From Elsinoe ampelina (taxonomy: Eukaryota): DNA of 64,000 nucleotides. The stretch is taken from NCBI GenBank assembly GCA_010093995.1, contig ML992510.1, positions 1,027,132 through 1,091,131 of the forward strand. The letters are read 5' to 3'. Position numbers and translations under genes: made by a program. Shown here piece after piece: positions 12,129-61,405 of the stretch. The notes beneath the pieces are model-generated. The model was not told the origin of the DNA. It saw only the letters and a list, made by a program, of their open reading frames with translations, and did no database searches. Each line of letters begins with the position of its first letter. Positions within the stretch are counted from its first letter, which is position 1.

Positions 12129-14329
12129 TTAGCTATAGTAGCTCCTACTTAATAATAACTAGTAAAAACTCTTCTTTATATATAACTTAGCTATATTTAT
12201 AATTAATAGTAGCCTTATTAGCCTTAAGCTAGCTAAGGCTAAGAATAATATTAAATTAGCTAATATCTATAATATAGAAGGTAGTAAGAGTATTTAGCTT
12301 ACTAGAAATAGTAGTAGTAAGAGAGACACTATAAGTAACTTATTCTATTAGAACACTATTATAAGCCTAAAGCTAAATAGAGCTAGCTAGTGCTACTAGG
12401 TAGCTAAAACTCTTTAGCTTATTAAGAATGTTATAGTTAACTATAGCGCCGATAAGCGCGCTAGTATTAATAAAAGCTTAGAGCGTAATAGTATAAAAGT
12501 AGTTATAGGGATTATAAATAGTAATAGGAGTTATAATAGCGGGGATATAGTAGCTAATAACGCTATTTAGTAACCGTATACCTCCGGATCTATCTCGAAT
12601 TACTCTTATTCTACTAGAGAATAGAACTTGTCCTCTAGCTACTTATTTCTCTAGCTAGATAGGTTAGTAGACTTATAATCTATTTTAGAATTAAACTAAG
12701 GCTAAACTAGATCTAGTTCGTAAGCTAAACTAGTATTAACTTAGTTACTTAATTTAGCTAAGTAATTCTAGAGCTATTATATCTCTTCTATAGTACTAAT
12801 ATATATAGAGTATATAGTAGCGTAAGTAGTCTTCTCTAAAGCGCTAGCTATATACTTAGTAGAGATATAGCTAGGCTTACTATATACGTAATAGGTAAGT
12901 ATTAGAGCTAGACGGAAAGGCTATAGAGCTCCTCTAGTAATAGAGCGAAAGATAGCTAGAGTAGTAGGTATAGAGATAGAATAAGGTATACAAATTAGTA
13001 CTATAGTAGTACGGCTTATAGCTAGGCTAGAGTATAAGGCCTAAGTACACTTAGTAATAAGGTTACTCTACTAGATATTATAGTTAGTAGCGTAGGTCTT
13101 TATAATAAAGATAGAGAGGTTATTAGTGTTAAAATTAATAAGGGTAGTACGTAGCTTACTAGATATCTTCTAGCGTAGCTAATAAAGCTATTTATCTTTA
13201 GCAATCTTAGTATAGAGAGTATACTTATTAAACTTACTAATAAAGGAGTTAAAAGAGATATTATACTAGAAGAGGCTAGCGAACTAAGCGCGCGTAGTAG
13301 CCTTATAGTTTAGATCCTCGAAGCGCTAGGCTAAAAGGCTAAGAGTAGCTTTAACATTAAGAGTGTTATTACTAGCAAAGTCTATAATAAGAGTATTATA
13401 AGAGCCTAGTGTTAGAGCGGCACTTAGTAGCGGCTAGTCCTACTTACGTAACGTACCTACTTATCTTATATAGCACTTATACCTTAGACTTAATAGTAAT
13501 TAGTTCTACTACTAATAGACTATTTAGTTAGATAAGCGTTCTCTATATTATAATATATATAGCTTTAATATAAGGCTTTAATAGTTCTAATTGCTCTACC
13601 TATAGTTATAATCTATTAGACTCTATAGACAACTAGAACTCTATTAGTAAGGCGCCTATACCTCGTATAAATAATGTTATAAAGATAAACTCTATTAAGT
13701 AGACTTCTCTAGAGAAAGAAGAAACTCTCGCGGAGTAGCTACTATACCTATGTACTAAGTATAAGTATTTAGAGCTAGAGCTTAAGGCTTAGAGCCTTAA
13801 GAAAGAAATTAAGTAAATATACTATATACGCGATATAGAATACTACTAAAGGGGCTTTAATTATAACTTATATACTTCTACTAAGCCTATAGTAAGTAAC
13901 GCTAGCACGTAGAGCGTATATAGTAGTAGTAGACTATTTATAAGACTATTCTCTAGACAACCTTAACTAAGAGAACCTTATCTCTATTAGAGTAAAACTC
14001 TAAAAGAGGTAAGATCTATAAGGACTAGTATAGTAAGTATACTATACTAGCTTACTCTAGAGATACTATTCTCTATAGAAGAATAAAACACTTCTTGCCT
14101 ATAGGACTAATAGAGTAGAGATTAGTCTTATAATAATTAAGAGTATACTAGTATAATACTTGTTCTACTTCTATATACTTATCTTTCTAGCTCTAATATT
14201 CTATCTTTGTTATAATTCTAATCTCTCTTATATTCTATTAAATAGAGCTATATAGACAAGATAGCACTCCGTGCTTAGCGCTAGCGAAATAACTAACTAC
14301 TACTAGAGTAGTACTAGTATAGATAACTC

Positions 14330-17300
14330 TCTAATAGCTTAGCTATTAGTAAGACATTTACTAAATTAGCTATAACTCTAGAGATAACCTCTATTAAAGA
14401 TTACTAGGCCGGAGAAGAGCTAGCGCTAAGACTATACTACGCTAATATAGCTCCTATAGAAAGTATAGCCGATATAGGAAATAATACTATATATAAAGCG
14501 CTCTTTGCTTATATTACTTAGCTTAAGAATATACTTAGTAGTCGCTCTCTAGTTATAGCGCCGGTGCTACGTAGTTGTTTTAATAATATATAACTTAATA
14601 ATATCTGCCTAATAAACCTATAAATCGTAAAAGAATATATACTAAGCTTATACTACCCCGAGGCCTTAGAGTTTACTATTATAGTAAGAGTTAAGGAATT
14701 TTTATATATATATAATAACATCTTTAAGATAGTACTAAATATTTACTTTAAAGAAGTTACTTAGTGCTATATAGCTATTAGCTACTTAAAAGGTTAGCTT
14801 AGCTATAATTAGGACTTATATACTAAAAGCGCTAGTATTATACCCTTATAAAGCCTAATATAGTTCTAGCTTTAGAACTAAGCCTAGAGTTCTAAAAACT
14901 ATAGTAATAGCTACGTAGTAAAGTTCTTTATATTATACTAGCGTAGAGAATAGTTAATTACTAATTTCTATATGTTCCTTAATAGTTATAAGTTTTATAT
15001 TAAGATAGCGCTACTCCTAGATAATACCTACTATATATAGCTTATTACCTATACTACGCCGGAGCTACGCTTAGAAGTACTCTATTAAGAGAACCTACTC
15101 TTAATTAAGGTAGAACTTCTAGTATATCTATTCTATTTAGAGTAGAACCTACTAGGCTACTTTAACTCTATATAGGGGTAGTATAAGTATAACGCTAGAG
15201 AGAAGACTAATACTTTTACTAAAAGGCCTTACTATAACGAAGACTATAAGGGCTAAAAGGACTAGTAGAGTAGCGCTAATACTACCCCTATAGCTCCCCG
15301 ACTTAGTACTACTTACTCTTATAACATCTATAAGAGCCTAGACTATTAGGCGCTAAACTATCCCTAGAAGAACTCTTTAAAATGGATAGTGTCCTTATAT
15401 TTACTAATCCTAAGTAGCTCTAGCGTAATATAGAATATATACTAAATTTGTACTAACGTTATAGTTAACCTACCTAAAGGCCCTATTAAAGGGGTAGCTC
15501 TAATAGATAGTAGCGCTAATAGTAACTTTATTAGCTAGTATTTTGCTATATACTATTATATCGCTATTAACCCCCTAGTAGTATATTAAGTATATAGCTT
15601 AGACAAATACAAATTAACTACCTATAGATATACTAAGTTAGCCTTTGCTATTAAGGATACCGAAGGAATAATATAGGCGTTATACTAGTAGTTTAAAAGC
15701 GTTAATATAACTAGTTATAATCTTATATTAGGCCTACTATAGCTATTATTCTATAACTCTAAGATTTAGTAAAGCGCTAGTGTATAGAGGTATTATACTA
15801 GCGCTATATAGGTGTTAATCCTAGATATACTCTTCTTCTTCTAGAAGCTAAATTAGTCTAATGCCTAGCTCTACCTAGTATATATATGCTAGGACGAACC
15901 TAGCGCCCTAACTCTACTATACTAGCTTAATAACTACGTAGATGTTTTTAATAAGAGTATAGTAATAGCGCTACTAGGTAATAATTTTACTTACTCTATT
16001 AATATTAAAGAGAGAGAATAGCTACTCTAGAGACCTATCTACCCCCTTAGTAAGAAGAAGCTTTAGGTACTTCGAGAGTATATAGATAATAGCTTAGTAA
16101 TAAGTTAACTCTAGTATAGTACTAGCTCTATAGAGTCTTCTATTCTATTCGTTCCTAAGAAGAATAGTTTACTACGCCTATATATTAACTATTATAGGCT
16201 AAATAATGTTACTATTAAGAACTATTACCTCTTACCTCTAATTGCTAAGATACTTAATTATATCGAGGGTATATACTTATTTAGCAAGCTAGACCTTATA
16301 GATGTCTACTATAGAGTATATATCTAGCGTAGTAATAAATAGAAGATAGTATTCTACTATTACTATAGCTACTTTAAATATACTATTATACCTTTTAGCC
16401 TTACTAATGCCCTAGCTATATTCTAGACTTATATATATTAGTACTTAAGTAGCTTAGTAGACTACTACTATATTATATATCTAGATAATATTCTAATCTA
16501 CGCTAGCGACAAGGAAGAGTATTACTAGGCTATTAGAAGTATACTAGACTACCTATATAAGAATAGCCTCTATATAAAACTAAAGAAGTATATCTTTAAG
16601 GTAATATAGGTAGTATTTCTAAGCTACGTTGTTAGTAGTAATAGTATTATAATAGAGTAGCCTTAGGTATAAGCCGTTACTAACTAGCCTATCTTTACTA
16701 GCCTTAAGGAGTTATAAACCTTTCTTAAATTTACTAATTTCTACTATTAATTTATTAAGAGCTTCTTCTATATAGCGCTACTACTAACTATACTTATACG
16801 AGAGTTAGTCTAAGAGAAGTAAGTAGGTCTATTTCTATAGAGTAATAATATAGTATAGGCCTTTAATAGGCTTAAAGCTACCTTTACGTAAGCGTCTATA
16901 CTATACTACTTTTTATTAGGTAAGCCTCTCTAGCTTAAGACTAACACTTTAGATTTTATACTCTCTAGAGTAATCTTCTAGTAAAACGAAAGTAATACTT
17001 CTATACGATACTAGTACTCTATAGCGTTCTAGTTCTAGAAGCTATAAGGTATAGAACTAAACTATACTACCTACGATAAAGAGCTTCTTACTATTATAGA
17101 AGTAGTATAGTACTAGCGCTAGTAATTACTTAGCGCTACTACTCTAATTAAAGTTCTCTTTAACTATAATAACCTTAGGTATTTTCTAACTACTAAGAAG
17201 CTTTTATAGTACTAGGCCTACTACGCCGAGGTACTAGCGTAGTTTAATATTGTTATTTAGTACTATAGTAGAAAGACTAACCTAGCTAATAGCCTATTAT

Positions 17301-19390
17301 ATAGACCTAACTACTATAAGTATAAAGAAGGTATATAGAAAGAGCGCTATATATTAGTCTCTCTCTTAGAGTAAGTATTATAAATACGAAGTAAAGGAGT
17401 TATACCTATATCTATTATAGATAAGAAACCTAAGGCTAGTAGGGCCTAGAAAGACAGTAATAAAGCTAGTATAGCTTATATACCTTAAACTACTCCCTAA
17501 TATAATACGCTTATATAATTCTAGCATACCTTTAGAATAGCGCCTATAAGTCTACCTATTACCTTAGGAGCGCTATAGCTATACTAAGAAGAGTTAGAGC
17601 CTCTAGAGTAAGAAGAGTAGTATCTAGAGAGTACTTATATAAACCTTTCTCTAAGCCTAACTAGTAATATTAAATTAGAACAATATATACCTACTCTAGT
17701 ATCCTAGGACATGCCGCTACTCGCCTAGGAAATAATAGAGAGCTAAGGGTATAAAGATAATATAACGCCTATATAACTCTAGGATACCTTTAGTAGAAAG
17801 CTCGCTATAATTTTAAACTAGAGTTAGTAAATTACGCACCTCTATACTATATAAGTACTAGTAGATAAAACTATATATACTTCTTCTACTCCTATATTAC
17901 TCTAGGACCTTATCTACGTAGTATAGTAAAGAGATACCTTTACTTATAGTAAGAAATAGAAACTTCTAAAAGAGAGAACCTTAACTAGTAATAGTACTAC
18001 CTCTAAGTAGAGCCTATCTAGTAATAGCTTACTCCGGAACGGAGATAGAGTATATATCCTAGAAGAAACTACCTTAAGAGTAGAGCTTATATAGTATAAT
18101 TATAATAATCCCTTAGAGAGTTACTTTAGCTATATAAAGACCTACCTTAATATAAGAAGGAAGTACTAGTAGCTAGGTATATCTATCGCTATAAAAGCGT
18201 ATATTAAGCGCTATAATAGCTACTAAAGGCATAAAGTAACGTAGTATAAGCCTTATAGCCTCCTATAACTCTTACTAATTCTACCTATACTCGAGGCCTT
18301 ATAATACTAGTTACTTAATTTTATTACTAGCTTACCCTCGGTAGAGCTCTAGCCTAGTATTATTATAGATACAATTATTATATATATCTATCGCTTGTCT
18401 AAGTTTAGTATCTATATACTGATATTAACTAAGCTTAACGCTAGGGACTTTACTAATCTATTTAAAACAGATATTATAACGTTGTTTAGAATACTAAAGA
18501 TACTAGTCTTAGATAGAGAGTCTATCTTTATAAGCAAATTCTAGAGTGCGCTATACTAGCGCTAGAAGGCGTAATATAAGCTTAGTACTAGTTTCTACCT
18601 ATAGATAGATAGCTAAACTAAAAGGCAAAACTAGATACTAGAGTAGTACCTCCGCTACTTTATTAACTATTACTAGATAGACTAGCTATACTAGGTTAAG
18701 TAGGCGTAATTCGTATATAATAACATATATTAAGTATTACTATATACTATACTAGTATAGTTCTTATTTATGTAGGAGATATATCTACTTAATAATATTA
18801 AAGTACTAGCGCTACCTAGCTACGTACTAGCGTATAACTTGTTAGTTAATAACTAAGTATAATTTATTACTAAAACGTATATAGAGCTTGCCTAACACCT
18901 ATATAAAGTATAGAAAGACTAGGCGCTAGCCTATAATAGAGATTAATAAGTAAAAGTCTTCTATAATAGCGATAAGGTTATACTTAGTACTAAGAACCTT
19001 TATAGCGCTAGACCTAGCTATAAGCTATTAGCTAAGTATATTAGCCTATTTATAATTATATAACGAATTAGTATATAGGTATATAAGCTATACTTACTAG
19101 ATAAAATAAAGATAATCTATAACATCTTTAACATTACGCTACTAGAGCTATATAGGCGTAGTAAGAGCATATACCTACTACCCCTAGAGGTAGAAGGGTA
19201 GGAAGAATATATTATTAAACATATCCTTAGTAAGAGCTATACTAGCACTCTAAAGGCGCTATACTACCTAGTAAAGTAGTAGAGTTACTCTATAGAAGAA
19301 AGTATATAGAAGCTAGTAAAAAACCTTATAAACGCTAAGGAATTACTATATAAATACAAGGTAGCTTAGTATAAGTATAGCGCTAGCTAA
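14330..19390 (+). pseudogene. gag-pol of A (zinc knuckle ~15320-15365, protease ~15500, RT, RNase H, integrase, chromodomain ~19200-19370)
   Basis: ALIDSSA protease-like motif, ILFVPKKN near 16140, YLD(N)ILIY at 16478. Many RIP stops. Boundaries approximate. Confidence 0.9.
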
Positions 19391-19582
19391 ACACTCTAGA
19401 CATACTTAGGATTAATAAGTTAAAGGTACAAATTTTAAAGTAAAGAGTACTTAGGCGTAGTACTAGGTTAGCTTAGAGTATTATTAGCTTACGTAAGGAG
19501 AACACTAGCGTAGTAAAAACTATAGAATTATACTAAAGTAAAGAGAGTATAGTATAGGTATAGTACTCTAGCTCTCTCTACT

Positions 19583-20453
19583 TTAACTATCTATGTTATC
19601 TACCTTAGTCTTATTCTTATTATTCTCCTTAATACTATTAATACGCCTAGTTAGTGCCCTTATAGCGTTATTAATTACCTACGTAGTAGTAGCTTACTTA
19701 TTCTTAGTAACTACCTATAAGAAAGTTAGTATAGCTTAAGCATTATAGAGGCGTACTTTTAGACTTATATAATTAGCTAAAGCCTTAAGTATAAAGCTAG
19801 TGTTACTAATTATACCTAGGTATAGCGCCTTTACTAGCTACTTAGTATTAACTTTAGAGGCGAAGAGTGTAGTAATAGTACTATTATAGCGTAAAGAAGT
19901 TATACTATTACTATTACTCTTATTAACTACCTTACTCTTGCTCTTAGTATTAGACTTACTCTATATATACTTAGCGCTAGCCTTCTTATATATATAGTTA
20001 GTATAGGCGGTAATCTAGCACTTTAGGAGAATAATATTCTTCTTAGAAGTAGTAGCGTTATTATAGAGTAGTATATACGTAGTAAAGTATTTATCCTAGA
20101 GCTTCTTAGTAGTAACTTAATCTTTAGAGTTAAGCTTAGTAGGCTACTAAGATTAGTATAAAGTAGATATAGTATAGGTATAAAGTATATCTAGTAGTAG
20201 TGTTTATTACTATAACTATAACAATTATAGTAGGTAGCCTTAGCCTTAGTAATCTAGTAGAGAGGATTCTTAATAGGGAGTATACTATCTTCGAGCTAGA
20301 GGTGCTTATTAATAGTAATAGCGTAGCGTAAGTATAGTATAGAGTACTAGTCCTAGTTAGTAAAATTACTCTTATAAGATCTATAAAAGGTTAGTACTAG
20401 CATAGTATAAGTACTATATATAATACTTACTCCTTAGAGACTTTAGAGGCTAT
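19583..20453 (-). pseudogene. Antisense spliced accessory gene of A, ~240 codons, Zn2Cys6-like
   Basis: Intron 20381-20430 has GTAAGT..CTAAC..TAG. Introns ~20144-20190 and 19715-19768 have RIP-altered donors. TAY codons at Cx2C-x21-C-x9-Cx2C-x6-C spacing (20197-20334). Confidence 0.65.
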
Positions 20454-21314
20454 AGTTATTAAAGTACGTAAGTATATAGGAGATAAGCTAGTATAGAGCT
20501 AGAATAATAAAGGAAAAAAAAAATTACTACGGAGGTACTATACTAGGTTAGTAAATAAATAACTAAATAGATAAGCTCGATAGCTAGATCTATAGTAGCG
20601 TAGGCTTAGTATATATACTAAGTCTCCTCTACTAGCCCTTAGACTAGTAAGACCTAGTCTATACTATATAGCACCTAAAATAGGTTACTAGTATAGTGTT
20701 AGACCTATATAAGTATAGAGCTAGTATTAAGTAGAATACTTACGCGAAGGAAGTATTATAAAGGAGAAAAGAAGAAGAGAAGAAGAAGAGAAAGATATAT
20801 ATCTAGCTCCGAGCTAAGACTAATCTAGAGAATAGTAGGTAGTAGTATATAATAATAAGTAGATTCTTATATATAAAAATAATAACGTAAGAGCGCTATA
20901 TTCTATATATAAAGAATTATACTATTATTACTATATCTAATATACGAAGAATAGTATAGGCTACTATAGGTACGCTATATATATAAAAAGTATACTATAC
21001 CTAAGAGGCGCTAGTAAGACACTCTTTCTTAGTTTTCTTCTATACTAGGTTTTCTAGGTTTTATTAAGGCTTATAAGTATAAGAGTATACCTCTTAAAGG
21101 GGAAGAATAATTATAAGAACTAGTATAGTAAGTATACTATACTAGCTTACTCTAGAGATACTATTCTCCGTAGAAGAATAAAACACTTCTTACCTATAGG
21201 ACTAATAGAGTAGAGATTAGTCTTATAATAATTAAGGGTATACTAGTATAACACCTATTCTACTTCTATATACTTGTCTTTCTAGCTCTAATATTCTACC
21301 TTTATTATAAGATT

Positions 21315-24300
21315 CTTCCTAAAGGATCTTAAGGTTATTTTTACTCTAGCCTCTAAGGCTTACTCTACTAACTAGTAGAAGGTACTATATAGAGTTATAT
21401 TTCTTATAGGCGAGCTAGATAAGATATAGTACTACTACTACTACGTAGATAGCTTAGAAGACTATATATAGAAGTAATTCCGCTAGTTTATATAGGATAT
21501 AGTTAATAACTCTATTAATTATAGAGTATATATAACTCTTATATATAAGAGAGCCTAATAATATAAAGGCTAATCTATCTAGGCCTTTACCTTAGAACTT
21601 ACTACCCTTAAGAAGTAACTAGCTCTCTACTCCGAAGAGTAGAGAGTATACTATCTTCTTACTAAGCTATAGCCTACGCTACGTACTACTATTATTAAAT
21701 ACTATACTATTCTAGCTACGCGCTAGAAGTTAGTCTCTTTAGACTTATATATTAAGTCTATAGACTATACTAGTAGTAAGCGTACTATATAAGAAAATAA
21801 AAGTAACTATCTATATAAGTATAGTAGTTATAGTAGCCCCCGAGAAGAATACTACTACTAGTCTAGTAGTAGCTCTTAAGCTTACTATAAGTATAAAGCT
21901 ACTAACTTACCTACTAAATAGTTTAGTAAGTAAAGGAGTTTCTCTAATAAGTAGAAGAAGAATACTAAGTACTATAGCTATAGTAGAACTAGTTATATTA
22001 AGCTAGAGTATAGGTTAAAGCACTTATAGAAGAATAATAAGTCGTAGGCGATATATAAGGTTACTACTATAGATAAGGTTAATAACTCTAAGTTAGTAAA
22101 CTCTAAGAGCTTAGCTAAAGAGTATAACTAAGCTCTTCTTCTCTCCTAATTAATACTTATCTATCGCTGCCTTATTATAGTACTATTATAGTGCCTATAG
22201 AGTACAAAGACTATATATTTCTTATAGACAATTATATAGAAGTTAATCTTATATCTTAGGTATTTACTCTTCGTTATAATCTACTAAGAGTTAAGTATAC
22301 TTAGTATCTAAGTATATCTTTCTTTATAGAGTAAGCTAGATTCTACTACGGCACGTACTAGCTTTATATATGTCTAGTAGACTTCTATAGCGACCTTAAG
22401 GAGACAATTAGCCTCTTCTACGCTATAGACTTAGGACTAGGCCCTCTAGTTATTTTAGGGCGCCTATAGCGAAGAAAGTAATATATAATTATAGATAGCG
22501 CTATAAATAACTAGTTATATAGCTACTTTTTATATATAGTTTACCTACGTAAACTAGAAGACTTTATAAAGAACCTCTAGAACGAGCTAAAGGTATATAC
22601 TATAGTATAGACTCTATCTAAGAACTATAACTACGCCGTAGGTAACTTAGCTCTACTATTAGAGTTCGTAAAGTTCTTTAATATCTTTGTCTATAAGAAT
22701 ATTACTAAATTACTACGCCTACTAGGCGTAGAGTATATAATTAAGCTAGAGCTAGGTAAGAGGCCTCTATTCTAGCCCTTATATAATCTCTTAGTTAAGA
22801 AGCTTAAGGTACTTAAGAACTATCTTAAGACTACTTAATTAAATAAGTAAATTAGGCGCTTTATAAGTAAGATAGGTACTTCTATCCTATTTGTGCCTAA
22901 GAAAGATAGTAGTCTATACTTATATATAGATTATTAGGGCTTAAACAAGGTAACTATTAAGAATTGCTACTTGCTTTTACTTATTAGTAAGATGCTTAAT
23001 TAGCTCGAGTAAGCCTAGTAGTTCTCGAAGTTAGATCTAAAGGATATTTACTATAGAATCTCTATTAAGTATAGCGACGAGTAAAAGACTATATTCCGTA
23101 TATACTATAGCTATTTTAAGTACTTAGTTATACTATTTAGATTAACTAACGCTCTAGCTACCTTCTAAGCGTATATTAATAAGGCGCTAAGTAGGCTAGT
23201 TAATACTATCTATATCGTCTACCTTAACAATATTCTTATCTATAGTAATTTAAGAAAGAACTATATATATTATATTTATAAGATTCTAGTAAGGCTATAG
23301 AAGTTTACTTTATATACTAACCTTAAGAAATATAAATTCTTTACTAAGGAGGTAGAATTCCTTAGCTATATTATTTCTACTATAGGCGTCTTAATAGATC
23401 CTAGTAAAGTAACTATAATTAAGAATTAGCTAAGGCTAAAGAGTTACTATAAGGTCTAGTAGTTTACTAGCTTTATAAACTTCTATTATTACTTCGTGTA
23501 GTACTACTCTAAGATTATTACTCTTCTCTCTAGCCTTCTTAAAGACTTAGTTAAAGGTTATAAGTATAGCTCTTTTATATAGGGCATAAGCAAATAGTAG
23601 ATATTTAAGGATATTAGGGACGCCTTTATACGTACCTCTATTCTCTATTACTATAATTCTACGCTGCCTCTATATATCAAAAGTAATATATTAAAGTTTA
23701 TAGTAGCGGTAATTCTATTCTAGTAATTCGATAGTACTTAGTACCTAATTACCTTCTAGTCGAGGATGTTTATCCTAGCTAAGTATAATTATAAGATATA
23801 TAACTAAGAGCTATTAGTAATTATATATATATTTAAGTAATAGTAATACTACCTTAAAGGTGTCTTATATATAATTTAAGTACTTACTAACTATAATAAT
23901 CTCTAAGGATTTATAAAGCTAAAATAGCTAAATAGCTAATAAGCTTACTAGGCTACTTTCCTTACCGCTTTTAACTTTATAATAGAGTATTAGGTAGGTA
24001 TAAGGAACCTAGCTAATATACCTTCGAGACGCCTTAACTACGTAGTAGAAGAGTAAGAGATATTATATCTCCTTTCTACCCTTTAGAATAAGCTTCGTAT
24101 ATAGAACTAAACTACTAACGTTAAGGAAGCTACTTCGCTTATTAGATATATCTACGCTATATACGAGACTACTCTAGGATAGGCCTAGGCTACCTATACG
24201 CTATATAGTAGTAACTTCTCTTCTAAGAACTTCTAGGGGCTTATAATAATCTAGCGAGTTATAGTTATAGCAACTATAAGAGAGAATCCCTTTAAAGATC

Positions 24301-25780
24301 TATCTACTAACCTAATATTAGTAGTAGAGCTACTATAAGAATAAGACTCTAAGATTATAAAGCTACGTTCGTAAGCGAGAAGTAGTAGAGACAAGAATAG
24401 AGCGCTATAGAATATATAAGATAATCTTCTCTTCTATAAAGAGTTACTAGTTATTCTAAATAATAGTATACTTAAGGCATAAGTACTACGTATATACTAT
24501 AATAGCGAATAGGCTAGTTACTTTAGTAAGAATAAGACGCTTAAACTTCTCTTATAGAAGTACTTCTAGATAACTATAAGAAAAGACATTAATAACTATA
24601 TATAGTTATACTAAGTATACTAGAAATATAAGACGTGCCGCTATTACCTCTATAGTAAGCTATATACGCTACCGATACTAGACTACCTATAGTAAGAAAT
24701 TATAATAGATTTTATTACTAACCTACTACTAAGTAAGCGAGGTAGTAGCATCTATAATATAGTACTAGTAATTATAGACTATTATACTAAGATATTACTA
24801 TATGTCTCTACTACTAAGAAGTATATATCTATAGAGCTAGTAGAGATCCTACGTAACTATATTATTTACTATTATAGTGTTCTAAGAGAAATAGTAAGTA
24901 ATTAAGAATTAGTCTTTACTAGCTAGTTCTAAAGTAAATTCTACTACGAAACACGTATAAAGCGTAGACTTAGTATAGTCTTTTACTTATAGATAGATAG
25001 TTAAACTAAGTAGTAAAACTAGACATTAGAATAGTACCTAAGGTACTACTATATAGAGCTATAAAATAACTAGGCTAAATGTCTATTACAAGTAGAATTT
25101 GTAAGTAATAATAGCATTTATACTACACTATATATAAGCCTCTTCTAAATAATATATAGCTACTATCTAGAGTTAGAGGTAATAGCTATTAAGTCTTAGG
25201 ACAAAACTTTAGAGAGAAGAGTACTAGTAGTAGTAGAGTTAGTATAACACTTATAAGATATATATATAAAGCTAGTAGAGTAATAGAAAGAGGCTTCTAC
25301 CTACTAGGCTAAGTACTATAATAGGAAGTATATACTAAGAGTATATAGTATAAGTAACTTAGTACTACTCTTAGCTAAGAACTTATAGCTACCTATACTA
25401 AAGAAGAAGATAAAACTATAGTTCCTTAGCCTATTCTATATACTTAATATAATTAGATCGTAGGTATATCGCCTAGCTTTACTAAGTTAGTATTATATCT
25501 ATAATATCTTTTATATATTTCTTCTTAAACTATAGATAGGTAGAGCTAGTAAGAAGCTAGAAGAGAGTATATCTCTCGCTAACGAAGTAGATAAGTAGAT
25601 AGTAAAGAAGATCCTAGATAAGAGAACTACGAAGAGTAAGGTATTCTACTTAGTAAAGTAGAAGAACTAGCTTATTAAGTTTAATAGCTAGGAACCTAAA
25701 GAGAATTATATAAATACGAGAGAGCTAATTACTATATATAAGTTATAGCTAAGAGTAGCTAAGAAAGGTCGCTAAAGGCG
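21315..25780 (+). pseudogene. Remainder of gag plus pol of B1
   Basis: ILFVPKKD near 22885, YL(N)(N)ILIY near 23220, integrase region, chromodomain ~25590-25740. Collinear with B2. Confidence 0.9.
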
Positions 25781-25829
25781 TAGATTATAGAGTATATAAG
25801 TAGATAGATTATATAAATATATAAATAGG

Positions 25830-26709
25830 GTAAAGAGTAGACTCCTTATCTAGAGAAATATATTTTAATAAAGCGCTATACTTACGCTACTATTACAAGT
25901 ATTAACCTAAACTCTATACTCTATTATACTCTATATAAGGCCTTATTATAGGTATAGCGCTAGAGATACGTACCTAGCTTATATATACTTACTNNNNNNN
26001 NNNGGCTATAAGCTACTTACTAGCTATAATATAGTTAATTTTAGTAGTAGAACTACTAGAGTTATATACTATCTAAACCTATTAGCTATATTTATAACAT
26101 ATAAGAAGCATAGTTTAACTTACCTCCTTACTAATAGTAATTAAGCTATAAAGGCTATACCTAATCTTCTATAGCTTCTTAACCTTCTTATACTTAAGCG
26201 TAATACTACTAAGCGAGCTATCTACGGGTCCTATATAAGGAGTTAAGACCTCGCTAATAACTTTATTCTTATTAGTGTAGTATACCTTAAGTATAGTCTT
26301 AAACTTCTTAACCTTAGGGACGTTCTTATAGGCTATAGTATATATATACTTCTTAGCTATAGTAATACTAGCCTAGCTAGGGGCCTTAAGCTTAGTAACT
26401 ACGTTAAAGGCGTTAATATATATATTACGTAGGATAGATAGAAGCGGCTCGTATATATACTTACTATAGATATAGTATTTATACTTATAATAGAAGAAGA
26501 TACTAAAGTTACCTCTAGTATAGACACGACCTACTACGAATTAGTTATATCTCTTATAAGAGCTCTATTAGCTTACTCTTAGCAATACTATTAGTGTACC
26601 TAGTATAAGTATTAGTCTTCTCTTTAGGAAGTAAGAGAGTTATAGAGTTAGCGCTAGTAGTAATAGCTCTCTAGACGCTAGCTAACCTTATACTATAAGT
26701 GTTAGCTAT
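25830..26709 (-). pseudogene. Antisense spliced accessory gene of B1, Zn2Cys6-like
   Basis: Introns 26534-26576 and 26073-26123. Same layout as in B2. The 3' end is uncertain and spans a small gap. Confidence 0.65.
25994..26003. other. Assembly gap (10 N; about 60 bp missing relative to B2)
   Basis: N run. B2 has about 61 bp between the same flanks. Confidence 0.95.
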
Positions 26710-28119
26710 AAGAGAGCTAGAGTTAGATAATATAATAGTTATAGGTAGTACACTTATATAGTAAGAGGTTAATAAAATATAGATATATTTTAGGTAGAAA
26801 AGAAAAACATAAGAGAGAATAATAAGATTATATAGACTAACCTCTAGTATACTATATCTTTGTTATAGCTACTAGTATAAGGCGTATATCTTCTATAATA
26901 CTACTAGGAATTCTAAGAAAAGTAATATTATTACTACTAATTAGCTTTAGCGCTATAGCGACTAGATAAACGCCCTTATAGAAACTAGATCTCTAGGATT
27001 ACTACTACTAAGTAGTATATAAGATATATATAAGACTTTTATATAAATACCTTAACTACCTTAAGCCTATATTACCTCTAGAAGGCGCTATACGTTATAT
27101 ACTTCTAGTTAAGAGCTAAGGATAGCTCTCCTAGAAGAGAAGGTAATTATAAGAGCCTAGTATTAAGGTAGTACTTAGTAGTAGCTAGTTCTACTTACGT
27201 AACGTACTTACTTATCTTATATAGTACTTATGCCTTAGACTTAACAGTAATTAGTTCTACTACTAATAGACTATTTAGTTAGATAGGCGTTCTCTATATT
27301 ACGATATATATAGCTTTAATATAAGGCTTTAATAGATATATACTTCGCTAGAGAGATAAGAGTAGAGATAGGTAAACTAAGTAGCCTTAGTAGAGAAGTA
27401 GTTAGCGTTAGTACGTATCTTATTCTTTATCTAATACTTAAAAACCTTAAACTATTCTAGAGTACTACTAGAGAAAATAGTAGAGTCTAGTATCTTTTTA
27501 AACAACGTAGTACTATATATAAAGGGAGCTAGTATAGTATATTCTATCTTAGCTCTTAGCTAGGCTAGTTCGGCCTTAAGTTTACTAATATCTACGAGAT
27601 AGTACGTAGTTTAGATAGTAAGATTATTAGTAGTGCTATTAGTAGTATCTAGCTCTATTAGAATATTATCTAACTAGTTATATAGACTAAGAGTATTAGT
27701 ATATACTAAGTTACGTATAGTAACCTATTTATTATAAGTAGACTCGACAAAGACAAAGGCCTTATATAGAGTAGTTATACTATCTATCTCTTATAGCCTC
27801 TTCTTAAAGTTAGTGTCGCTAAGGTAGATAAGGTTATAATAGGCTAACTAGACTAGTTTATTATTATTATTATATAAGGGCCTAGTATTAGAGCGGCACT
27901 TAGTAGCGGCTAGTTCCGCTTACGTAACGTACCTACTTATCTTATATAGCGCTTATATCTTAAACTTAATAGTAATTAGTTCTACTACTAATAGACTATT
28001 TAGTTAGATAGGCATTCTCTATATTATAATATATATAGCTTTAATATAAGGCTTTAATAGTTCTAATTACTCCCCTATAGTTATAATCTATTAGACTCTA
28101 TAGACAACTAGAACTCTAT

Positions 28120-31100
28120 TAGCGAGGCGCTAGTACCTTATATAATTAATGTTATAGAGATAGACTTTATTAAGTAGACTTCCCTAGAGAAAGAAGAGAC
28201 TCTTACGGAGTAGCTACTATACCTATATACTAAGTATAAGCGTTTAGAGCTAGAGCTTAAGGCTTAGAGCCTCGAGGAAGAGATTAAGTAAATATACTAT
28301 ATATATAATATAGAATACTACTAAGGAGGCTTCGACTATAACTTATATACTTCTACTAAGCCTATAGTAAGTAATACTAGTACATAGAGTATATATAGTA
28401 GTAGTAGACTATTTATAAGACTATTCTCTAGATAACCTCGACTAAGGGAACTCTATCTCTACTAGAGTAAGACTCTAAAAGAGGTAAGATCCTTCCTAAA
28501 GAATCTCGAGGTTATCTTTACTCTAGCCTCTAAGGCTTATTCTACTAACTAGTAGAAGGTGCTCTATAGAGTTATATTTCTTATAGGTAAGCTAGATAAG
28601 ATATAGTATTACTACTACTACGTAGATAGCCTAGAAGGCTATACGTAGGAGCAATTCTACTAGTTTATATAGGATATAGTTAATAACTCTATTAATTATA
28701 GAGTGTATATAACTCTTATATATAAAGAAGCTTAATAATATAAGAGCTAATCTATCTAGGCCTTTACTTCGGAACTTACTACTCTTAAGGAGTAACTAGC
28801 TTTCTACTCTAAAGAGTAGAGAGTACGCTATCTTCTTACTAAGCTATAGCCTACACTACGTACTACTATTATTAAACACTATACTATTCTAGCTATACGC
28901 TAGAAGTTAGTCTCTTTAGACTTATATATCGAGTCTATAGACTATACTAGTAGTAAGTATACTATATAGAAAGATAAAAGTAACTACCTACATAAGTATA
29001 GTAGTTATAGTAGCCCCTAAGGAGAATACTACTACTAGTCCGGTAGTAACTCTTAAGCTTACTATAAGCGCGAAGCTACTAACTTATCTATTAAAGAGTT
29101 TAGTAGTTAGGGGAGTTTCTCTAATAAGTAAAAGAGAGACGCTAAGTACTATAGTTATAGTAAAACTAGTTATATTAAGCCGAAGTATAAGTCGAAGTAC
29201 CTATAGAAGAATAGTAAGTCTTAGGCAGTACGTAAGGTTACTACTATAGATAAGTCTAATAACTCTAAGTTAGAAAACTCTAAGGGCTTAGCTAAAGAGT
29301 ATAACTAAGCTCTTTCTCTCTTCTAATTAACACTTATCTATCGCTACTCTATTATAGTACTATTATAGCGCCTATAGAGTATAAAGACTATATATTTCTT
29401 ATAGACAATTATATAGAAGTTAATCTTATATCTTAGGTATTTACTCTTTGTTATAATCTGCCGAGAGTTAAGTATACTTAGTATCTAAGTATCTTCTCCT
29501 TTATAGAGTAAGCCGAATTCTACTATAGTACGTACTAGCTTCGTATATATCTAGTAGACTTCTATAGTAACCTTAGAGAGACAATTAGCCTCTTCTATAC
29601 TATAGACTTAGGACTAGGCCCTCTAGTTATTTTAGAGTGCCTATAGTAGAGAAGATAGTATATAATTATAGATAGCGCTATAGATAACTAGTTATATAGC
29701 TACTCCTTATATATAGTTTACTTACGTAAACTAGAAGACTTTATAAAGGACCTTAAGAACGAGCTAAGAGTATATACTATAGTATAGACTCTATCTAAGG
29801 ACTACACTTATGCTATAGATAACCTAGCTCTACTATTAGAGTTCGTAAAGTTCTTTAATATCTTTATCTATAAGAATATTATAAATCTACTATACCTACT
29901 AGGCGCCGAGTATATAATTAAGCTAGAGCTAGGTAAAAGGCCTCTATTCTAGCCCTTATATAATCTTTTAGTTAAGAAGCTTAAAGTGCTTAAGAACTAT
30001 CTCGAGACTACTTAATTAAATAGGTAAATTAGGCACTCTATAAGTAAGATAGGTACTTCTATCTTATTCGTACCTAAGAAAGATAGTAGTCTACGCTTAT
30101 ATATAGATTACTAGGGCTTAAACAAGATAATTATTAAGAATTGCTACCTACTTCTACTTATTAGTAAGACACTTAATTAGCTTAGGTAAGCCTAGTAGTT
30201 TTCGAAGTTAGATCTAAAGAATGTCTACTATAGGATCTCTATTAAGCGTAGTAACGAGTAGAAGACTATATTCTATATATACTATAGCTATTTTAAGTAT
30301 TTAGTTATACCTTTTAGATTAACTAACGCCCTAGCTACCTTCTAAGCGTATATTAATAAGGCGCTAGGTAGGCTAGTTAATACTATCTATATCGTCTACC
30401 TCGATAATATTCTTATCTATAGTAATTTAAGGGAGAACTATATATATTATATTTATAAGATTCTAGCGAGGCTATAGAAGTTTACTTTATATATTAACCT
30501 TAAGAAATATAAATTCTTTACTAAGGAGGTAGAATTCCTTAGCTATATTATCTCTACTATAGATGTCTTAATAGATCCTAGTAGAGTAACTATAATTAAG
30601 AATTAGCTAAGGCTAAAGAGTTATTATAAGGTCTAGTAGTTTACTAGCTTTATAAACTTCTATTATTACTTTATATAGTACTACTCTAAGATTATTACTC
30701 TCCTCTCTAGTCTTCTTAAAAGCTTAGTTAAAGGTTATAAGTATAGCTCTTTTATATAAGGTATAAGTAAATAGTAGGCATTTAAGGATATTAGGGACGC
30801 CTTTATACGTACCTCTATCCTTCGTTACTATAATTCTACGCTACCCCTATATATTAAAAGTAATACGTTAAAGTTTATAGTAGTAGTAATCCTATCCTAG
30901 CTATTTAATAGTACTTAGTACCTAATTGCCTTCTAGTTAAGGAAGTTTATCCTAGCTAAGTATAATTATAAGATATATAACTAAGAGCTATTAGTAATTG
31001 TATATATATTTAAGTAATAGCGACACTACCTCGAAGGTACCTTATATATAATTTAAGTACTTACTAACTATAATAATCTCTAAGGATTTATAAAGCTAAA

Positions 31101-32960
31101 ATAGCTAAATAGCTAATAGGCTTACTAGGCTACCTTTCTTGCTGCTTTTAACTTTATAATAGAGTATTAGCTAGGCATAAGGAACCTAGCCGATATACCC
31201 TCGAGGTACCTTAACTACGTAGTAGAAGAGTAAGAAGTATTATATCTCCTTTCTACTCTTTAGAATAAGCTTCGTATATAGGACTAAACTACTAACGTTA
31301 AGGAAGCTACTTCGCTTATTAGATATATCTACGCTATATATAAGGCTACTCTAGAATAGGCCTAGGCTACCTATATACTATATAGTAGTAACTTCTCTTC
31401 TAAGAACTTCTAGAGGCTTATAATAACCTAGTAAGTTATAGTTATAGTAACTATAAGAGAGAATCCCTTTAAAGATCTATCTACTAACCTAATATTAGTA
31501 GTAGAGCTACTATAAGGATAAGACCCCGAGATTATAAAGCTATATTTATAAGTAGAAAGTAGTAGAGATAAGAGTAAAGCGCTATAGAATATATAAGATA
31601 ATCTTCTCTTCTATAAAGAGTTACTAGTTATTGTAAATAATAGCGTACTTAAGGTGTAGGTACTATATATATACTATAATAGTAAATAGGCTAGTTACTT
31701 TAGTAAGAATAAGACGCTTAAGCTCCTATTATAGAAATACTTCTAGCTAACTATAAGAAAAGATATTAATAACTATATATAGTTATACTAAGTTTACTAG
31801 AAGTATAAGGCGCACTACTATTACCTCTATAGCGAGCTATATACGCTATCGATACTAGACTACCTATAGTAAGAAATTATAATAGATTTTATTACTAACC
31901 TACTACTAAGTAAGTAAGGTAGTAGCGTCTATAATATAGTACTAGTAATTATAGACTATTACACTAAGATGTTACTATATATCTCTACTACTAAGAAGTA
32001 TATATCTATAGAGCTAGTAGAGATCCTACGTAACTATATTATTTACTATTATAGTGTCCTAAGAGGAATAGTAAGTAATTAAGGATTAGTCTTTACTAGC
32101 TAGTTCTAGAGTAAATTCTGTTATAAAACACATATAAAGTATAGGCTTAGTATAGCCTTTTACCTATAGATAGATAGTTAAACTAAGTAGTAAAACTAGA
32201 CATTAGAATAGTACCTAAGATACTACTATATAGAGCTATAGAATAACTAGGCTAAATATCTATTACAAGCGGAATTTGTAAGTAATAATAGTATTTATAC
32301 TATACTACATATAAGCCTCTTCTAAATAATATATAGCTACTATCTAGAGTTAGAGGTAATAGCTATTAAGTCTCGAGATAAAACTTTAAAGGGAAGAGTA
32401 CTAGTAGTAGTAGAGTTAGTATAACACTTATAAGATATATATATAAAGCTAGTAGAGCAATAGAAAGAGGCTTCTACCTACTAGGCTAAGTACTATAATA
32501 GGAAGCATACGCTAAGAGTATATAGCGTAGGTAACTTAGTACTACTCTTAGCTAAGAACTTATAGCTACCTATACTAAAGAAGAAGATAGAACTATAATT
32601 CCTTAGCTTATTTTACATACTTAATATAATTAGATCGTAGGTGTATCGCCTAGCTTTACCGAGTTAGTATTACATCTATAATGTCTTTTATATATCTCTT
32701 CTTAAACTATAGATAGGTAAAGCTAGTAAGGAGCTAGAAGAGAGTATATCTCTCGCTAACGAAGTAGATAAGTAGATAGTAGAGAAGATCCTAGGTAAGA
32801 GAACTATAAAGAGTAAGGTATTCTACTTAGTAAAGTAAAAGGACTAGCCTATTAAGTTTAATAGCTAGAAATCTAAAGAGAATTATATAAATATAAGAGA
32901 GCTAATTACTATATATAAGTTATAGCTAAGAGTAGCTAAGAAAGGTTACTAAAGGTGTAG
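28120..32960 (+). pseudogene. gag-pol of B2
   Basis: Zinc knuckle ~29145-29190, protease-like motif ~29400, YLD(N)ILIY at 30397, chromodomain ~32760-32920. Boundaries approximate. Confidence 0.9.
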
Positions 32961-32999
32961 ATTATAAAGTATATAAGTAGATAAATTATATAAATATAT

Positions 33000-33937
33000 A
33001 AATAGGGTAAAGAGTAGACTTCTTACCTAGGGAAATACATTTTAATAAAGTACTATACTTACGCTACTATTATAGGTATTAACCTAAACTCTATACTCTA
33101 TTATACTCTATATAAGGCCTTATTATAGGTATAGCGCTAGAGATACGTACCTAGCTTATATATACTTACTTATCCTTACTATTCTTCTTATTTATCTCTA
33201 TACTAAGATTCTTTCCTATAGGTGCTATAGGGGCTATAAGCTACTTACTAGCTATAATATAGTTAATTTTAGTAGTAGAACTACTAGAGTTATATACTAT
33301 CTAAACCTATTAGCTATATTTATAACGTATAAGGAGCATAGTTTAACTTACCTCCTTACTAATAGTAATTAAGCTATAAAGGCTATACCTAATTTTCTAT
33401 AGCTTCTTAACCTTCTTATACTTAAGCGCGACACTACTAAGTAAGCTACCTATAGGCTCTATATAAAGAGTCGAGACCTTACTAACGACCTTATTCTTGT
33501 TAGTATAGTATGCCTTAAGTATAGTCTTAAACTTCTTAACTACGGGAATGTTCTTATAGGCTATAGTATATATATACTTCTTAGCCGCGGTAATACTAGT
33601 CTAGTTAGAGACCTTAAGCTTAGTAACTACGTTAAAGGCGTTAATATATATATTACATAGAATAGATAGAAGTAGCTTATATATATACTTACTATAGACG
33701 TAGTGTTTATACTTATAATAGAAGAAGATACTAAAGTTACCTCTAGTATAGATATAACCTACTACGAATTAGTTATATCTCTTATAAGAGCTCTATTAGC
33801 TTACCCTTAGTAACGCTATTAGTATACCTAGTATAGGTATTAGTCTCCTCTTTAGAAAGTAAGAAAGTTATAGAGTTAGCGCTAGTAGTAATAACTCTCT
33901 AGGTGCTAGTAGACCTTATACTATAAGTATTAGCTAT
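33000..33937 (-). pseudogene. Antisense spliced accessory gene of B2, Zn2Cys6-like
   Basis: Introns 33762-33804 (GTAAGC..CTAAT..TAG) and 33301-33351 (GTAAGT..CTAAT..TAG). TAY codons at Cx2C-x10-C-x12-Cx2C-x6-C spacing (33679-33835). The spliced frame is nearly stop-free. Confidence 0.7.
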
Positions 33938-34959
33938 AAGAGAGCTAGAGTTAGATAATATAATAGTTATAGGTAGTACGCTTATATAGTAAAGAGTTAA
34001 TAAAATATAGATATGTTTTAGGTAGAAAAGGAGAATATAAGAGAGAATAATAAAGTTATATAGACTAATCTCTAGTATACTATATCTTTATTATAGCTAC
34101 TAGTATAAGGCGTACGTCTCCTACGATACTACTAAGAATTCTAAGAAAAGTAATATTATTGCTACTAATTAGCTTTAGTACTATAGCGACTAGATAAACG
34201 CCTCTATAGAAACTAGATCTCTAGAATTACTATTACTAAATAGTATATAAGATATATACTAGACTTTCGTATAAATACCTTAACTACCTTAAGCCTACGT
34301 TACTTCTAGAAGGCGCTATATGTTATATACTTCTAGTTAAGAGCTAAGGATAGCTCTCCTAGAGAAGGAGGCAATTATAAGAGCCTAGTATTAGGGTAGT
34401 ACTTAGTAGCGGCTAGTTCTACTTACGTAACGTACTTACTTATCTTACGTAGCGCTTATGCCTTAAACTTAATAGTAATTAGTTCTACTACTAACGGACT
34501 ATTTAGTTAGATAGGTGTTCTTTATATTACGATATATATAGCTTTAATATAAGGCTTTAATATATTAGTAGGGAGTAGAGGGATCTTACTTATATAGTAA
34601 TTATCTTTACTATAGTTAGAGTAAGCTATACTTAGTATAGTTAGTTATAAATAAATAGTATAAAAAGTTAACGCGTAACAAAGGGAATATTAAAATTTTT
34701 TAGCTAGTAGCTTACTTCCTTTAAGAGTCGTCTATAACTTAACTTATTACCTTCTTCTTGTATTTATAGTTTATAGTATTAACCTATATAGTAGTAGTAA
34801 GGATCTATTATAGTATATGTAGGAACTATAGTTATAATAGCTTCTTCTTTAATTCTTTAATTCTTTATAAGTAGGTGTTAGTAGTTACGTAAGTAGTAGA
34901 ATAACTAGATAATTTAATAGCTCTATTACTTATTATAGTTATTTAAAGTCTCGATATAG

Positions 34960-61170: not shown

Positions 61171-61405
61171 CTAATAGCTTATCTATAGGAGCTAAGTAGG
61201 AGTATTAAGAATATAGCTCTCTCTAGATAATTAGGCTATAAAGTTATATAACCTTAAGTTATATAATGCTAAGGCCTAGAGATTTATAGCTGTTCTTTCT
61301 TCTAGTAGATAGACTTCTTTTAATTAATTAACTCGTCTATTACCTAACTAGTGTACGATTAGTTCTATATAATATTCTACCCCTAAACGTGCCTTCCGCT
61401 TAATA

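What the first reader, a model, noticed from the sequence alone, without database searches (positions are those of the whole stretch)
33301..33937. Family B: antisense two-intron gene conserved in both copies
Both introns keep GT, branch site and AG in B1 and B2. Differences between the copies restore residues: B1 has GGT CGT GTC (GRV) before Cys3 and GAG CCG (EP) after Cys6. The inferred sequence is TCTRC-x10-C-x12-CEHCVRGKHVC-EP. Roughly 190 codons contain only a few TAG stops despite heavy RIP.
Basis: partly seen in the sequence, partly recalled or inferred. Interest (0 to 1): 0.7.

Follow-up and report, generated by a model that had tools for sequence, protein, structure and literature searches.

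The report
Backwards zinc-cluster gene in fungal retrotransposon
A mutation-killed fungal retrotransposon carries, backwards between its polymerase gene and its end repeat, the remains of a real two-intron gene for a six-cysteine protein that intact relatives still encode, and two sister forms of the element appear to have swapped versions of this extra gene, as if it were an exchangeable regulator module.

Summary
The gene is real but dead. Family B is a RIP-mutated Ty3/Gypsy element. Splice signals hold in nearly all of 30 genomic copies. TGY survives at Cys2 (4/30) and Cys4 (9/30) only. An intact natural homologue (Elsinoe fawcettii KAF4546987.1, E 1e-15) has cysteine at all four exon-2 columns plus an N-terminal CxxC, with spacing x2-x9-x12-x2-x6. 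All 8 assessable intact Gypsy relatives from metagenomes carry an antisense six-Cys gene at the same place. It is not a formal Zn2Cys6 member (no Pfam hit, longer first loop), and fold searches were inconclusive. Between B and a six-copy sister subfamily, RIP-blind transversions are 22% in the introns but 6% at pol four-fold sites and 2% in the LTR, so the 3' module looks older than its backbone, probably through recombinational exchange. An un-RIPed control pair shows no such contrast. The best guess for function is a trans-acting nuclear regulator of the element (inferred only). The layout is known from Botrytis brtn, and this scan noted the same gene type before on other DNA.

The parts
27873..34562 (+). 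B2, full-length RIP-mutated Ty3/Gypsy LTR retrotransposon; 5-bp target-site duplication TATTA
27873..28059 (+). B2 5' LTR (about 190 bp)
29401..32950 (+). B2 pol, one frame with RIP stops: RT, RNase H, integrase zinc domain, SH3; chromodomain-like end seen by eye only
   Evidence: RVT_1 E 5e-18, RT_RNaseH_2 2e-12, SH3_Tf2-1 8e-6, Integrase_H2C2 0.002
33805..33961 (-). Exon 1 of the antisense gene, with Cys1 (33835) and Cys2 (33826); start at 33961 inferred; one RIP stop
33759..33804 (-). Intron 1, phase 1 (46 nt to the second of two tandem acceptors, 43 nt to the first)
33352..33758 (-). Exon 2: Cys3 (33750), Cys4 (33711), Cys5 (33702), Cys6 (33681), then the helical region; two RIP stops
33307..33351 (-). 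Intron 2, phase 0, 45 nt
33166..33306 (-). Exon 3 with terminal stop at 33168-33166; matches the acidic tail region of the intact homologue by position; two RIP stops
33962..34373 (-). Upstream region of the antisense gene (promoter inferred); holds a 120-nt island (34080-34200) with no transversion against three sister copies
34374..34562 (+). B2 3' LTR, preceded by a purine-rich tract
13397..27334 (+). B1, second copy, split by another LTR element inserted at about 14017-21307
26004..26733 (-). Antisense gene in B1 (start column 26733, donors 26576 and 26123); exon 3 is cut short by a run of N

Best explanation
This is a RIP-killed accessory gene of a fungal Ty3/Gypsy element. SHOWN: it lies antisense between pol and the 3' LTR, has two spliceosomal introns, and encoded a protein of about 234 aa; the intact homologue has six cysteines, a helical hairpin plus one more helix, and an acidic tail. 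INFERRED from retroelement biology: the introns survive reverse transcription because they face away from the genomic RNA, so the gene had its own antisense transcript from the upstream region or the 3' LTR. INFERRED, least certain: the six cysteines form a Gal4-like two-zinc cluster, and the protein acts in the nucleus in trans on its own element, binding DNA or chromatin and switching the element on or relieving silencing through the acidic tail. SUPPORTED BY STATISTICS: family B and its sister subfamily hold two old alleles of this 3' module on nearly the same gag-pol-LTR backbone, most simply through recombination between co-resident elements.
For: Gene: third-position bias of transversions 15.2/21.1/31.5 per 112 codons, mean of 140 non-independent pairs; one pair p=0.048; hhalign probability 99, E 4e-18. 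Distribution; the carriers are spread over the RT tree at 63-77% identity apart from one close pair, and six of them share a GT-AG intron two codons after Cys6. Model of the homologue (mean pLDDT 69): short helices begin at Cys1/2 (32-39) and Cys4/5 (58-63), as in Zn2Cys6 clusters (recalled), followed by helices 72-88, 99-130 and 151-171. Its last 40 residues hold 18 D/E and no K/R; residues 50-70 hold 7 K/R/H. Module age: introns 20/90 transversions, pol four-fold sites 19/315, LTR 4/187 (Fisher p 2e-5 and 1e-7), with similar figures for two more sister copies.
Against: No Pfam Zn_clus hit for any of 15 aligned members at E up to 5 or for 8 intact proteins. The Cys2-Cys3 loop is 9 here and 11-20 in relatives, not the 6-residue DNA-reading loop of Gal4 (recalled). 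Four of six cysteine columns show no TGY in any of 30 copies, so they rest on the homologue. Function is untested. In the un-RIPed pair L075/L096 the accessory gene is no older than pol at silent sites (transversions 13/57 against 115/500), so exchange is not general; there the protein simply evolves like Gag (56-64% against 57% identity; Pol 83%). No third family that could have donated either allele was found in the genome (38 matches, all B or sister). The context of the Elsinoe protein could not be seen.
Confidence: 0.5

Rival explanations
1. Counter-defence protein: a zinc-binding suppressor of RNA silencing, meiotic silencing or heterochromatin formation that binds host proteins or small RNA rather than the element's DNA.
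For: Fast protein evolution and two old alleles on one backbone suggest conflict. The host genome is under very heavy RIP (composite index about 2 across the window). The non-canonical first loop argues against Gal4-type base reading.
Against: No sequence or fold link to a known suppressor (searches gave nothing clear). All 30 B copies examined were killed anyway. The basic second loop and acidic tail fit a transcription factor at least as well.
Confidence: 0.2
2. Self-restraint or exclusion factor: it limits copy number or blocks related elements, and the two alleles define two exclusion groups.
For: Antisense retroviral and retrotransposon products have been proposed as regulators of transposition (passages of PMC7264820). 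Two alleles coexist on one backbone.
Against: B reached at least 30 copies with this gene. Nothing links the protein to Gag or to particles.
Confidence: 0.15
3. No exchange took place: the 3' module looks old only because gag, pol and the LTR are unusually constrained at silent sites or were homogenised by gene conversion.
For: Pol four-fold sites and LTRs can be under RNA-level constraint. Two zero- or low-transversion islands lie inside the 3' region (33120-33180, 34080-34200). Homogenisation of the backbone gives the same pattern as a swap.
Against: In L075/L096, pol four-fold sites diverge as freely as the accessory gene's, so constraint alone is unlikely. The contrast has sharp borders near the gene's stop codon and at the LTR.
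Confidence: 0.2
4. Selfish passenger (poison/antidote or drive-type gene) that protects the element from loss.
For: Only the allele diversity and the intron-bearing, self-contained transcription unit.
Against: No membrane segment or known toxin fold was seen; a single small protein; all local copies lost it without trace.
Confidence: 0.05
5. Chance pattern in RIP-biased DNA, or a non-functional captured host fragment.
For: RIP makes TAY codons and GTAAG/CTAAT/TAG words common: 10 of 136 exon-2 columns are TAY/TGY in all copies.
Against: Intact homologue at E 1e-15 with cysteine in those columns; same introns and frame in a subfamily only about 40% identical in protein; 8 of 8 intact relatives, with no six-Cys match on the plus strand in any of 80 loci.
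Confidence: 0.02

Closest known systems
[quoted passage not shown] 2011, PMID 21802103; paper not held, seen only through passages and reference lists of PMC7264820, PMC8365987 and PMC4227169)
   Same: Fungal chromodomain-bearing Gypsy element with an extra antisense gene between pol and the 3' LTR; function unknown.
   Different: No brtn sequence was available, so homology is untested. The passages read mention no cysteine cluster, no introns and no allele exchange; the original paper may.
Antisense additional ORFs (aORF-3R) of plant LTR elements: maize Grande gene23, rice RIRE2, Silene Retand, bean PvRetro13 (passages of PMC7264820)
   Same: Same position and orientation; own promoter and a nuclear product shown for Grande gene23.
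   Different: Plant elements. The review reports no clear similarity to database proteins, and the word intron does not occur in its main text.
Zn2Cys6 binuclear cluster transcription factors (Gal4 type, Pfam Zn_clus PF00172; pattern recalled)
   Same: Six cysteines as CxxC...C...CxxC-x6-C, two short predicted helices, following helices and an acidic tail.
   Different: First loop 9-20 instead of 6 residues, no Pfam match, small stand-alone protein carried by a transposon.
VANC anti-silencing proteins of Arabidopsis VANDAL transposons (abstract of PMC5735166)
   Same: Analogy only: a transposon-encoded accessory protein whose related forms act on different element families.
   Different: DNA transposon in plants; no homology tested or claimed.
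Elsinoe fawcettii hypothetical protein KAF4546987.1 (P0004)
   Same: True homologue over exon 2 (29-39% identity to individual RIP-mutated copies), with all six cysteines.
   Different: Intact, 213 aa; whether it lies in a Gypsy element could not be checked.

Membership tests
Ty3/Gypsy LTR retrotransposon (host element) | Two LTRs with a target-site duplication | tested here: met
   LTRs of about 190 bp, 90% alike; TATTA on both sides of B2
Ty3/Gypsy LTR retrotransposon (host element) | pol order RT - RNase H - integrase | tested here: met
Chromovirus clade | Chromodomain at the end of integrase | tested here: inconclusive
   Chromodomain-like residues by eye at the end of pol and in intact relatives; no Pfam Chromo hit on the RIP-mutated copy
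Antisense additional ORF between pol and 3' LTR (brtn / aORF-3R kind) | [quoted passage not shown] | tested here: met
   30 full-length matches in the genome, 6 sister copies, 8 of 8 assessable intact relatives
Antisense additional ORF between pol and 3' LTR (brtn / aORF-3R kind) | Own antisense transcript | tested here: inconclusive
   No RNA holder listed and nothing laid from 4 of 4 runs; retained introns imply it only by inference
brtn protein family | Sequence homology to brtn | not testable with these tools
   No brtn sequence was returned by any search; paper not held
Zn2Cys6 (PF00172) | Six cysteines as two CxxC plus two single Cys | tested here: met
   P0004 Cys31, 34, 44, 57, 60, 67; the four exon-2 positions match TAY/TGY columns in 28/28 B and 5/5 sister copies
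Zn2Cys6 (PF00172) | Six-residue basic loop between Cys2 and Cys3 (recalled) | tested here: not met
   9 in P0004 and, with the second acceptor, in B; 11-20 in relatives
Zn2Cys6 (PF00172) | Match to the Pfam model | tested here: not met
   0 of 8 intact proteins, 0 of 15 alignment members
Zn2Cys6 (PF00172) | Binuclear zinc-cluster fold | tested here: inconclusive
   Helix pattern compatible; the fold lists were filled by helical bundles, best Z 5.1, Foldseek none at E 0.001; the cluster was not folded alone
Zn2Cys6 (PF00172) | Zinc binding, dimerisation, sequence-specific DNA binding | not testable with these tools
   Bench work needed; no complex prediction was obtained

The most novel reading that the evidence does not exclude
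Many fungal Gypsy elements carry a previously unnamed family of spliced, antisense, Zn-cluster-like regulators that act as specificity modules: each allele recognises its own element or a host silencing factor, and co-resident elements exchange the whole 3' module by recombination, a fungal retrotransposon counterpart of retroviral accessory genes and of plant VANC anti-silencing proteins.
Probability: 0.25. Interest if true: 0.8.

Novelty: new variant of a known kind. Interest (0 to 1): 0.52.

Why it matters
The role of antisense extra genes in LTR retrotransposons is an open question (PMC7264820), and fungal Gypsy elements are usually annotated as gag-pol only. Here the extra gene has a recognisable motif, intact natural representatives that can be tested at the protein level, and a sign of allele exchange between sister elements. 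If it regulates or de-silences its element, it would explain how these elements persist under RIP and RNA silencing. It would also account for a set of orphan six-cysteine 'hypothetical proteins' in fungal annotations. The copies in this window are dead and matter only as evidence.

Tried and rejected
Pfam on RIP-mutated exon 2: nothing above noise. The first exon-2 alignment had the five sister rows out of frame and was redone; one row of A5 was out of frame and was redone. The profile of RIP-mutated copies found nothing in the 80 metagenome loci, so those relatives are linked by layout, cysteine pattern, an intron position shared among six of them and a weak motif, not by a significant score to family B. 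The other profile hit, P0003, is a tandem-repeat protein and was dropped. Three word-index protein searches found only the query or near-copies of the queries. Atlas: unnamed ascomycete clusters at 0.91 for P0004, leads only. PDB sequence search: best E 0.019, an unrelated helix. The single-sequence fold was unusable (pLDDT 43.5). Fold searches listed no zinc-cluster protein; this is not evidence of absence. RNA: no RNA holder listed; four same-species runs gave no cover. The viral-contig scan returned no answer. No dimer prediction was obtained. My interim note that the 33961 codon lines up with an ATG of sister copies was wrong: 2 of 6 sister copies keep an in-frame ATG 48 codons before the donor, against 52 for 33961, in a poorly alignable exon. 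Literature: seven searches found no paper describing a six-cysteine antisense gene in fungal Gypsy elements; subscription papers, including Zhao 2011, are not covered. The two text supplements of PMC8365987 held no mention of brtn; its figure S1 could not be seen.

Full report
Setting. The window is a nest of RIP-mutated fungal LTR elements: GC about 30% and composite RIP index about 2 throughout. Family B has two copies here. B2 spans 27873-34562, with LTRs of about 190 bp and a TATTA target-site duplication; B1 spans 13397-27334 and is split by another element. The plus strand holds one long pol frame with RT (E 5e-18), RNase H, integrase zinc domain and SH3 in Ty3/Gypsy order, ending in chromodomain-like residues seen by eye. 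The finding lies on the minus strand between the end of pol and the 3' LTR.

Observation. A search of the own genome gave 40 matches, 30 of them near full length (a lower bound). I compared these 30 one by one and built no consensus. Donor 1 is GTAAGC in 28/30, branch 1 ACTAAT in 30/30, donor 2 GTAAGY in 30/30, branch 2 GCTAAY in 29/30 and acceptor 2 YAG in 28/30. All six proposed cysteine columns are TAY or TGY in 30/30. Exon 2 has exactly two stops in 136 codons in 28 of 28 indel-free copies; two copies with frameshifts were left out. The mean for 3642 frames of that length from the window is 15.5, and none had two or fewer.

Corrections. The codon at 33937 varies as ATA, GTA, GCG and ACG, which rules it out as a start. 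The column at 33961 is ATA in 30/30 and is the likely start (inference). Intron 1 ends in two tandem acceptors; the second is CAG in one copy and gives nine residues between Cys2 and Cys3. Exon 3 continues to a stop at 33168-33166. The gene is thus about 234 codons in three exons. All 30 copies are broken: four stop columns are shared by 30/30 and a fifth by 27/30.

Sister subfamily. Four weak DNA matches led to a sister subfamily of six copies. It has introns at the same two places, TAY/TGY in the cysteine columns, and an exon 2 shorter by exactly seven codons in 5 of 6 copies; the sixth has a frameshifting duplication. Protein identity to B2 is 37-42%. Because RIP makes only transitions, transversions record older change. 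In exon 2 they fall 15.2, 21.1 and 31.5 on codon positions 1, 2 and 3 of the antisense frame (mean of 140 non-independent pairs, 112 codons; one pair p=0.048), a modest signal of selection on the protein.

Intact relatives. A profile of 18 per-copy exon-2 translations (X at stops), run against 1.84 billion representatives, gave two hits. One is a repeat protein and was dropped. The other, P0004, is Elsinoe fawcettii hypothetical protein KAF4546987.1 (213 aa, E 1.2e-15; hhalign probability 99). It has cysteines at 31, 34, 44, 57, 60 and 67 (spacing x2-x9-x12-x2-x6). The last four fall on the TAY/TGY columns of 28/28 B and 5/5 sister copies; only 10 of 136 B columns are of that kind. Searching the own genome with it gave 38 matches, all B or sister copies, and no intact or host version.

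Independently, the RT of B2 fetched 80 metagenome loci (the best 80 of 425). Eighteen have an RT without stops and 10 a pol frame of 900 aa or more. Three of those 10 end within 500 nt of pol and could not be assessed. The other seven, plus L073 (pol split over the contig ends), are assessable. Seven of these eight match a six-cysteine pattern on the minus strand. The eighth, L102, has six cysteines with a last loop one residue beyond my pattern. In L073 and L075 the contig appears circularly permuted, so the gene follows pol across the ends. L083 has a stop just before Cys1. No plus-strand match occurred in any of the 80 loci; one further minus-strand match (L140) lies beside a RIP-mutated RT and was not counted. 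Six carriers share a GT-AG intron two codons after Cys6; family B lacks that intron and has its own two. The carriers are spread over the RT tree. The profile of RIP-mutated copies did not score on these loci, so their kinship with family B rests on layout, cysteine pattern and a weak motif shared by P0004, L083 and L084.

What the protein is. No Pfam family reaches significance for 8 intact proteins or 15 alignment members, and Zn_clus is not among the weak hits. The Cys2-Cys3 loop is 9-20 residues, not the six of Gal4-type clusters (recalled), so membership of PF00172 fails. A model of P0004 on a 15-row alignment (mean pLDDT 69, pTM 0.46) has short helices starting at each CxxC, then a helical hairpin (72-130, pLDDT 79-90) and a helix at 151-171. 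The tail is acidic (18 D/E and no K/R in 40 residues) and the Cys4-Cys6 region is basic. Fold searches returned only generic helical bundles (Foldseek none at E 0.001; best Z 5.1), and the cluster was not folded alone, so the fold is open. No RNA holder was listed and four runs gave no cover; this says nothing about expression.

An older module on a shared backbone. Between B and the sister subfamily, transversions per site are 0.012 at the end of pol and 0.016 in the LTR, but 0.20 in exon 2, 0.33 in exon 1 and 0.19-0.26 in the introns; within B all regions are at or below 0.013. At near-neutral sites, B2 against L031 shows 20/90 in introns and 6/20 at exon-2 four-fold sites, against 19/315 at pol four-fold sites and 4/187 in the LTR (Fisher p 2e-5, 0.002 and 1e-7); two more sister copies agree. 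The rise begins near the gene's stop codon and ends at the LTR, with two quiet islands. Selection on the protein cannot explain old introns, so the 3' module has a deeper ancestry than gag-pol and the LTRs. Template switching or recombination between co-resident elements is the simplest cause; homogenisation of the backbone gives the same pattern. Against generalising: in the un-RIPed pair L075/L096 the accessory gene and pol are equally diverged at silent sites (13/57 against 115/500), and the accessory protein evolves like Gag (56-64% and 57% identity; Pol 83%).

Mechanism. Shown: a spliced-type antisense gene, conserved across fungal Gypsy lineages, now dead in this genome. Inferred: the introns persist because they are antisense to the genomic RNA, so the gene has its own transcript. 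Most likely function (about 0.5): a nuclear zinc-cluster-like protein acting in trans on its own element, as activator or anti-silencing factor. Rivals are a suppressor of host silencing (0.2), a copy-control or exclusion factor (0.15) and a selfish passenger (0.05).

Known systems. Antisense extra genes between pol and the 3' LTR are described for plant elements and for Boty of Botrytis and Sclerotinia (brtn), with function unknown (passages of PMC7264820; passages of PMC8365987 and PMC4227169). The brtn paper itself is not held, so homology is untested. VANC proteins are an analogy only (abstract of PMC5735166). Seven literature searches found no description of a six-cysteine antisense gene in fungal Gypsy elements, within a library that lacks most subscription papers. 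This scan has 20 earlier notes with these words in at least four genomes, including this one. A words search for cassette exchange found none.

Verdict. A real, dead accessory gene; a new variant of a known kind. The six-cysteine family and the apparent module exchange are the parts worth following up. Interest 0.52.

Noticed in passing
window 10943-10200, minus strand: A 248-codon frame with 5 stops lies antisense near the 3' end of a different Gypsy-type element (RT near 6800-7300); possibly that family's own accessory gene, but it does not match the family B profiles.
   Followed up: partly
window 20253-19930, minus strand: A 108-codon frame with 2 stops lies antisense before the LTR (21070-21310) of the element inserted in B1; another candidate accessory region.
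   Followed up: no
window 34080-34200 and 33120-33180: Two islands with 0 and 1-2 transversions against three sister copies, inside an otherwise highly diverged 3' region; candidate promoter, binding or polyadenylation elements, or conversion tracts.
   Followed up: no
L073, L075, L084, L096, L102: Metagenome contigs that hold a whole un-RIPed Gypsy element with long gag and pol frames; four have terminal overlaps of 123-216 nt, as expected for collapsed multi-copy elements.
   Followed up: partly
L102:7612-6500, minus strand: The antisense gene here appears to have five or more introns and an acidic tail, so intron number in this family varies widely; L073 shows none in the part read.
   Followed up: no
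window 50826-53875 and 58376-61420: Two inverted copies (90% alike) of a Copia-type pol region, judged by eye from integrase-like and RT/RNase H-like frames.
   Followed up: no
L032:2743-3707: A fold-back array of inverted repeats of about 400 bp next to a sister copy; may be an assembly artefact or a real palindrome.
   Followed up: no
window 33913-33889 and B1 equivalent: Family B copies fall into two exon-1 haplotypes that differ by transversions, so the variation predates RIP.
   Followed up: no
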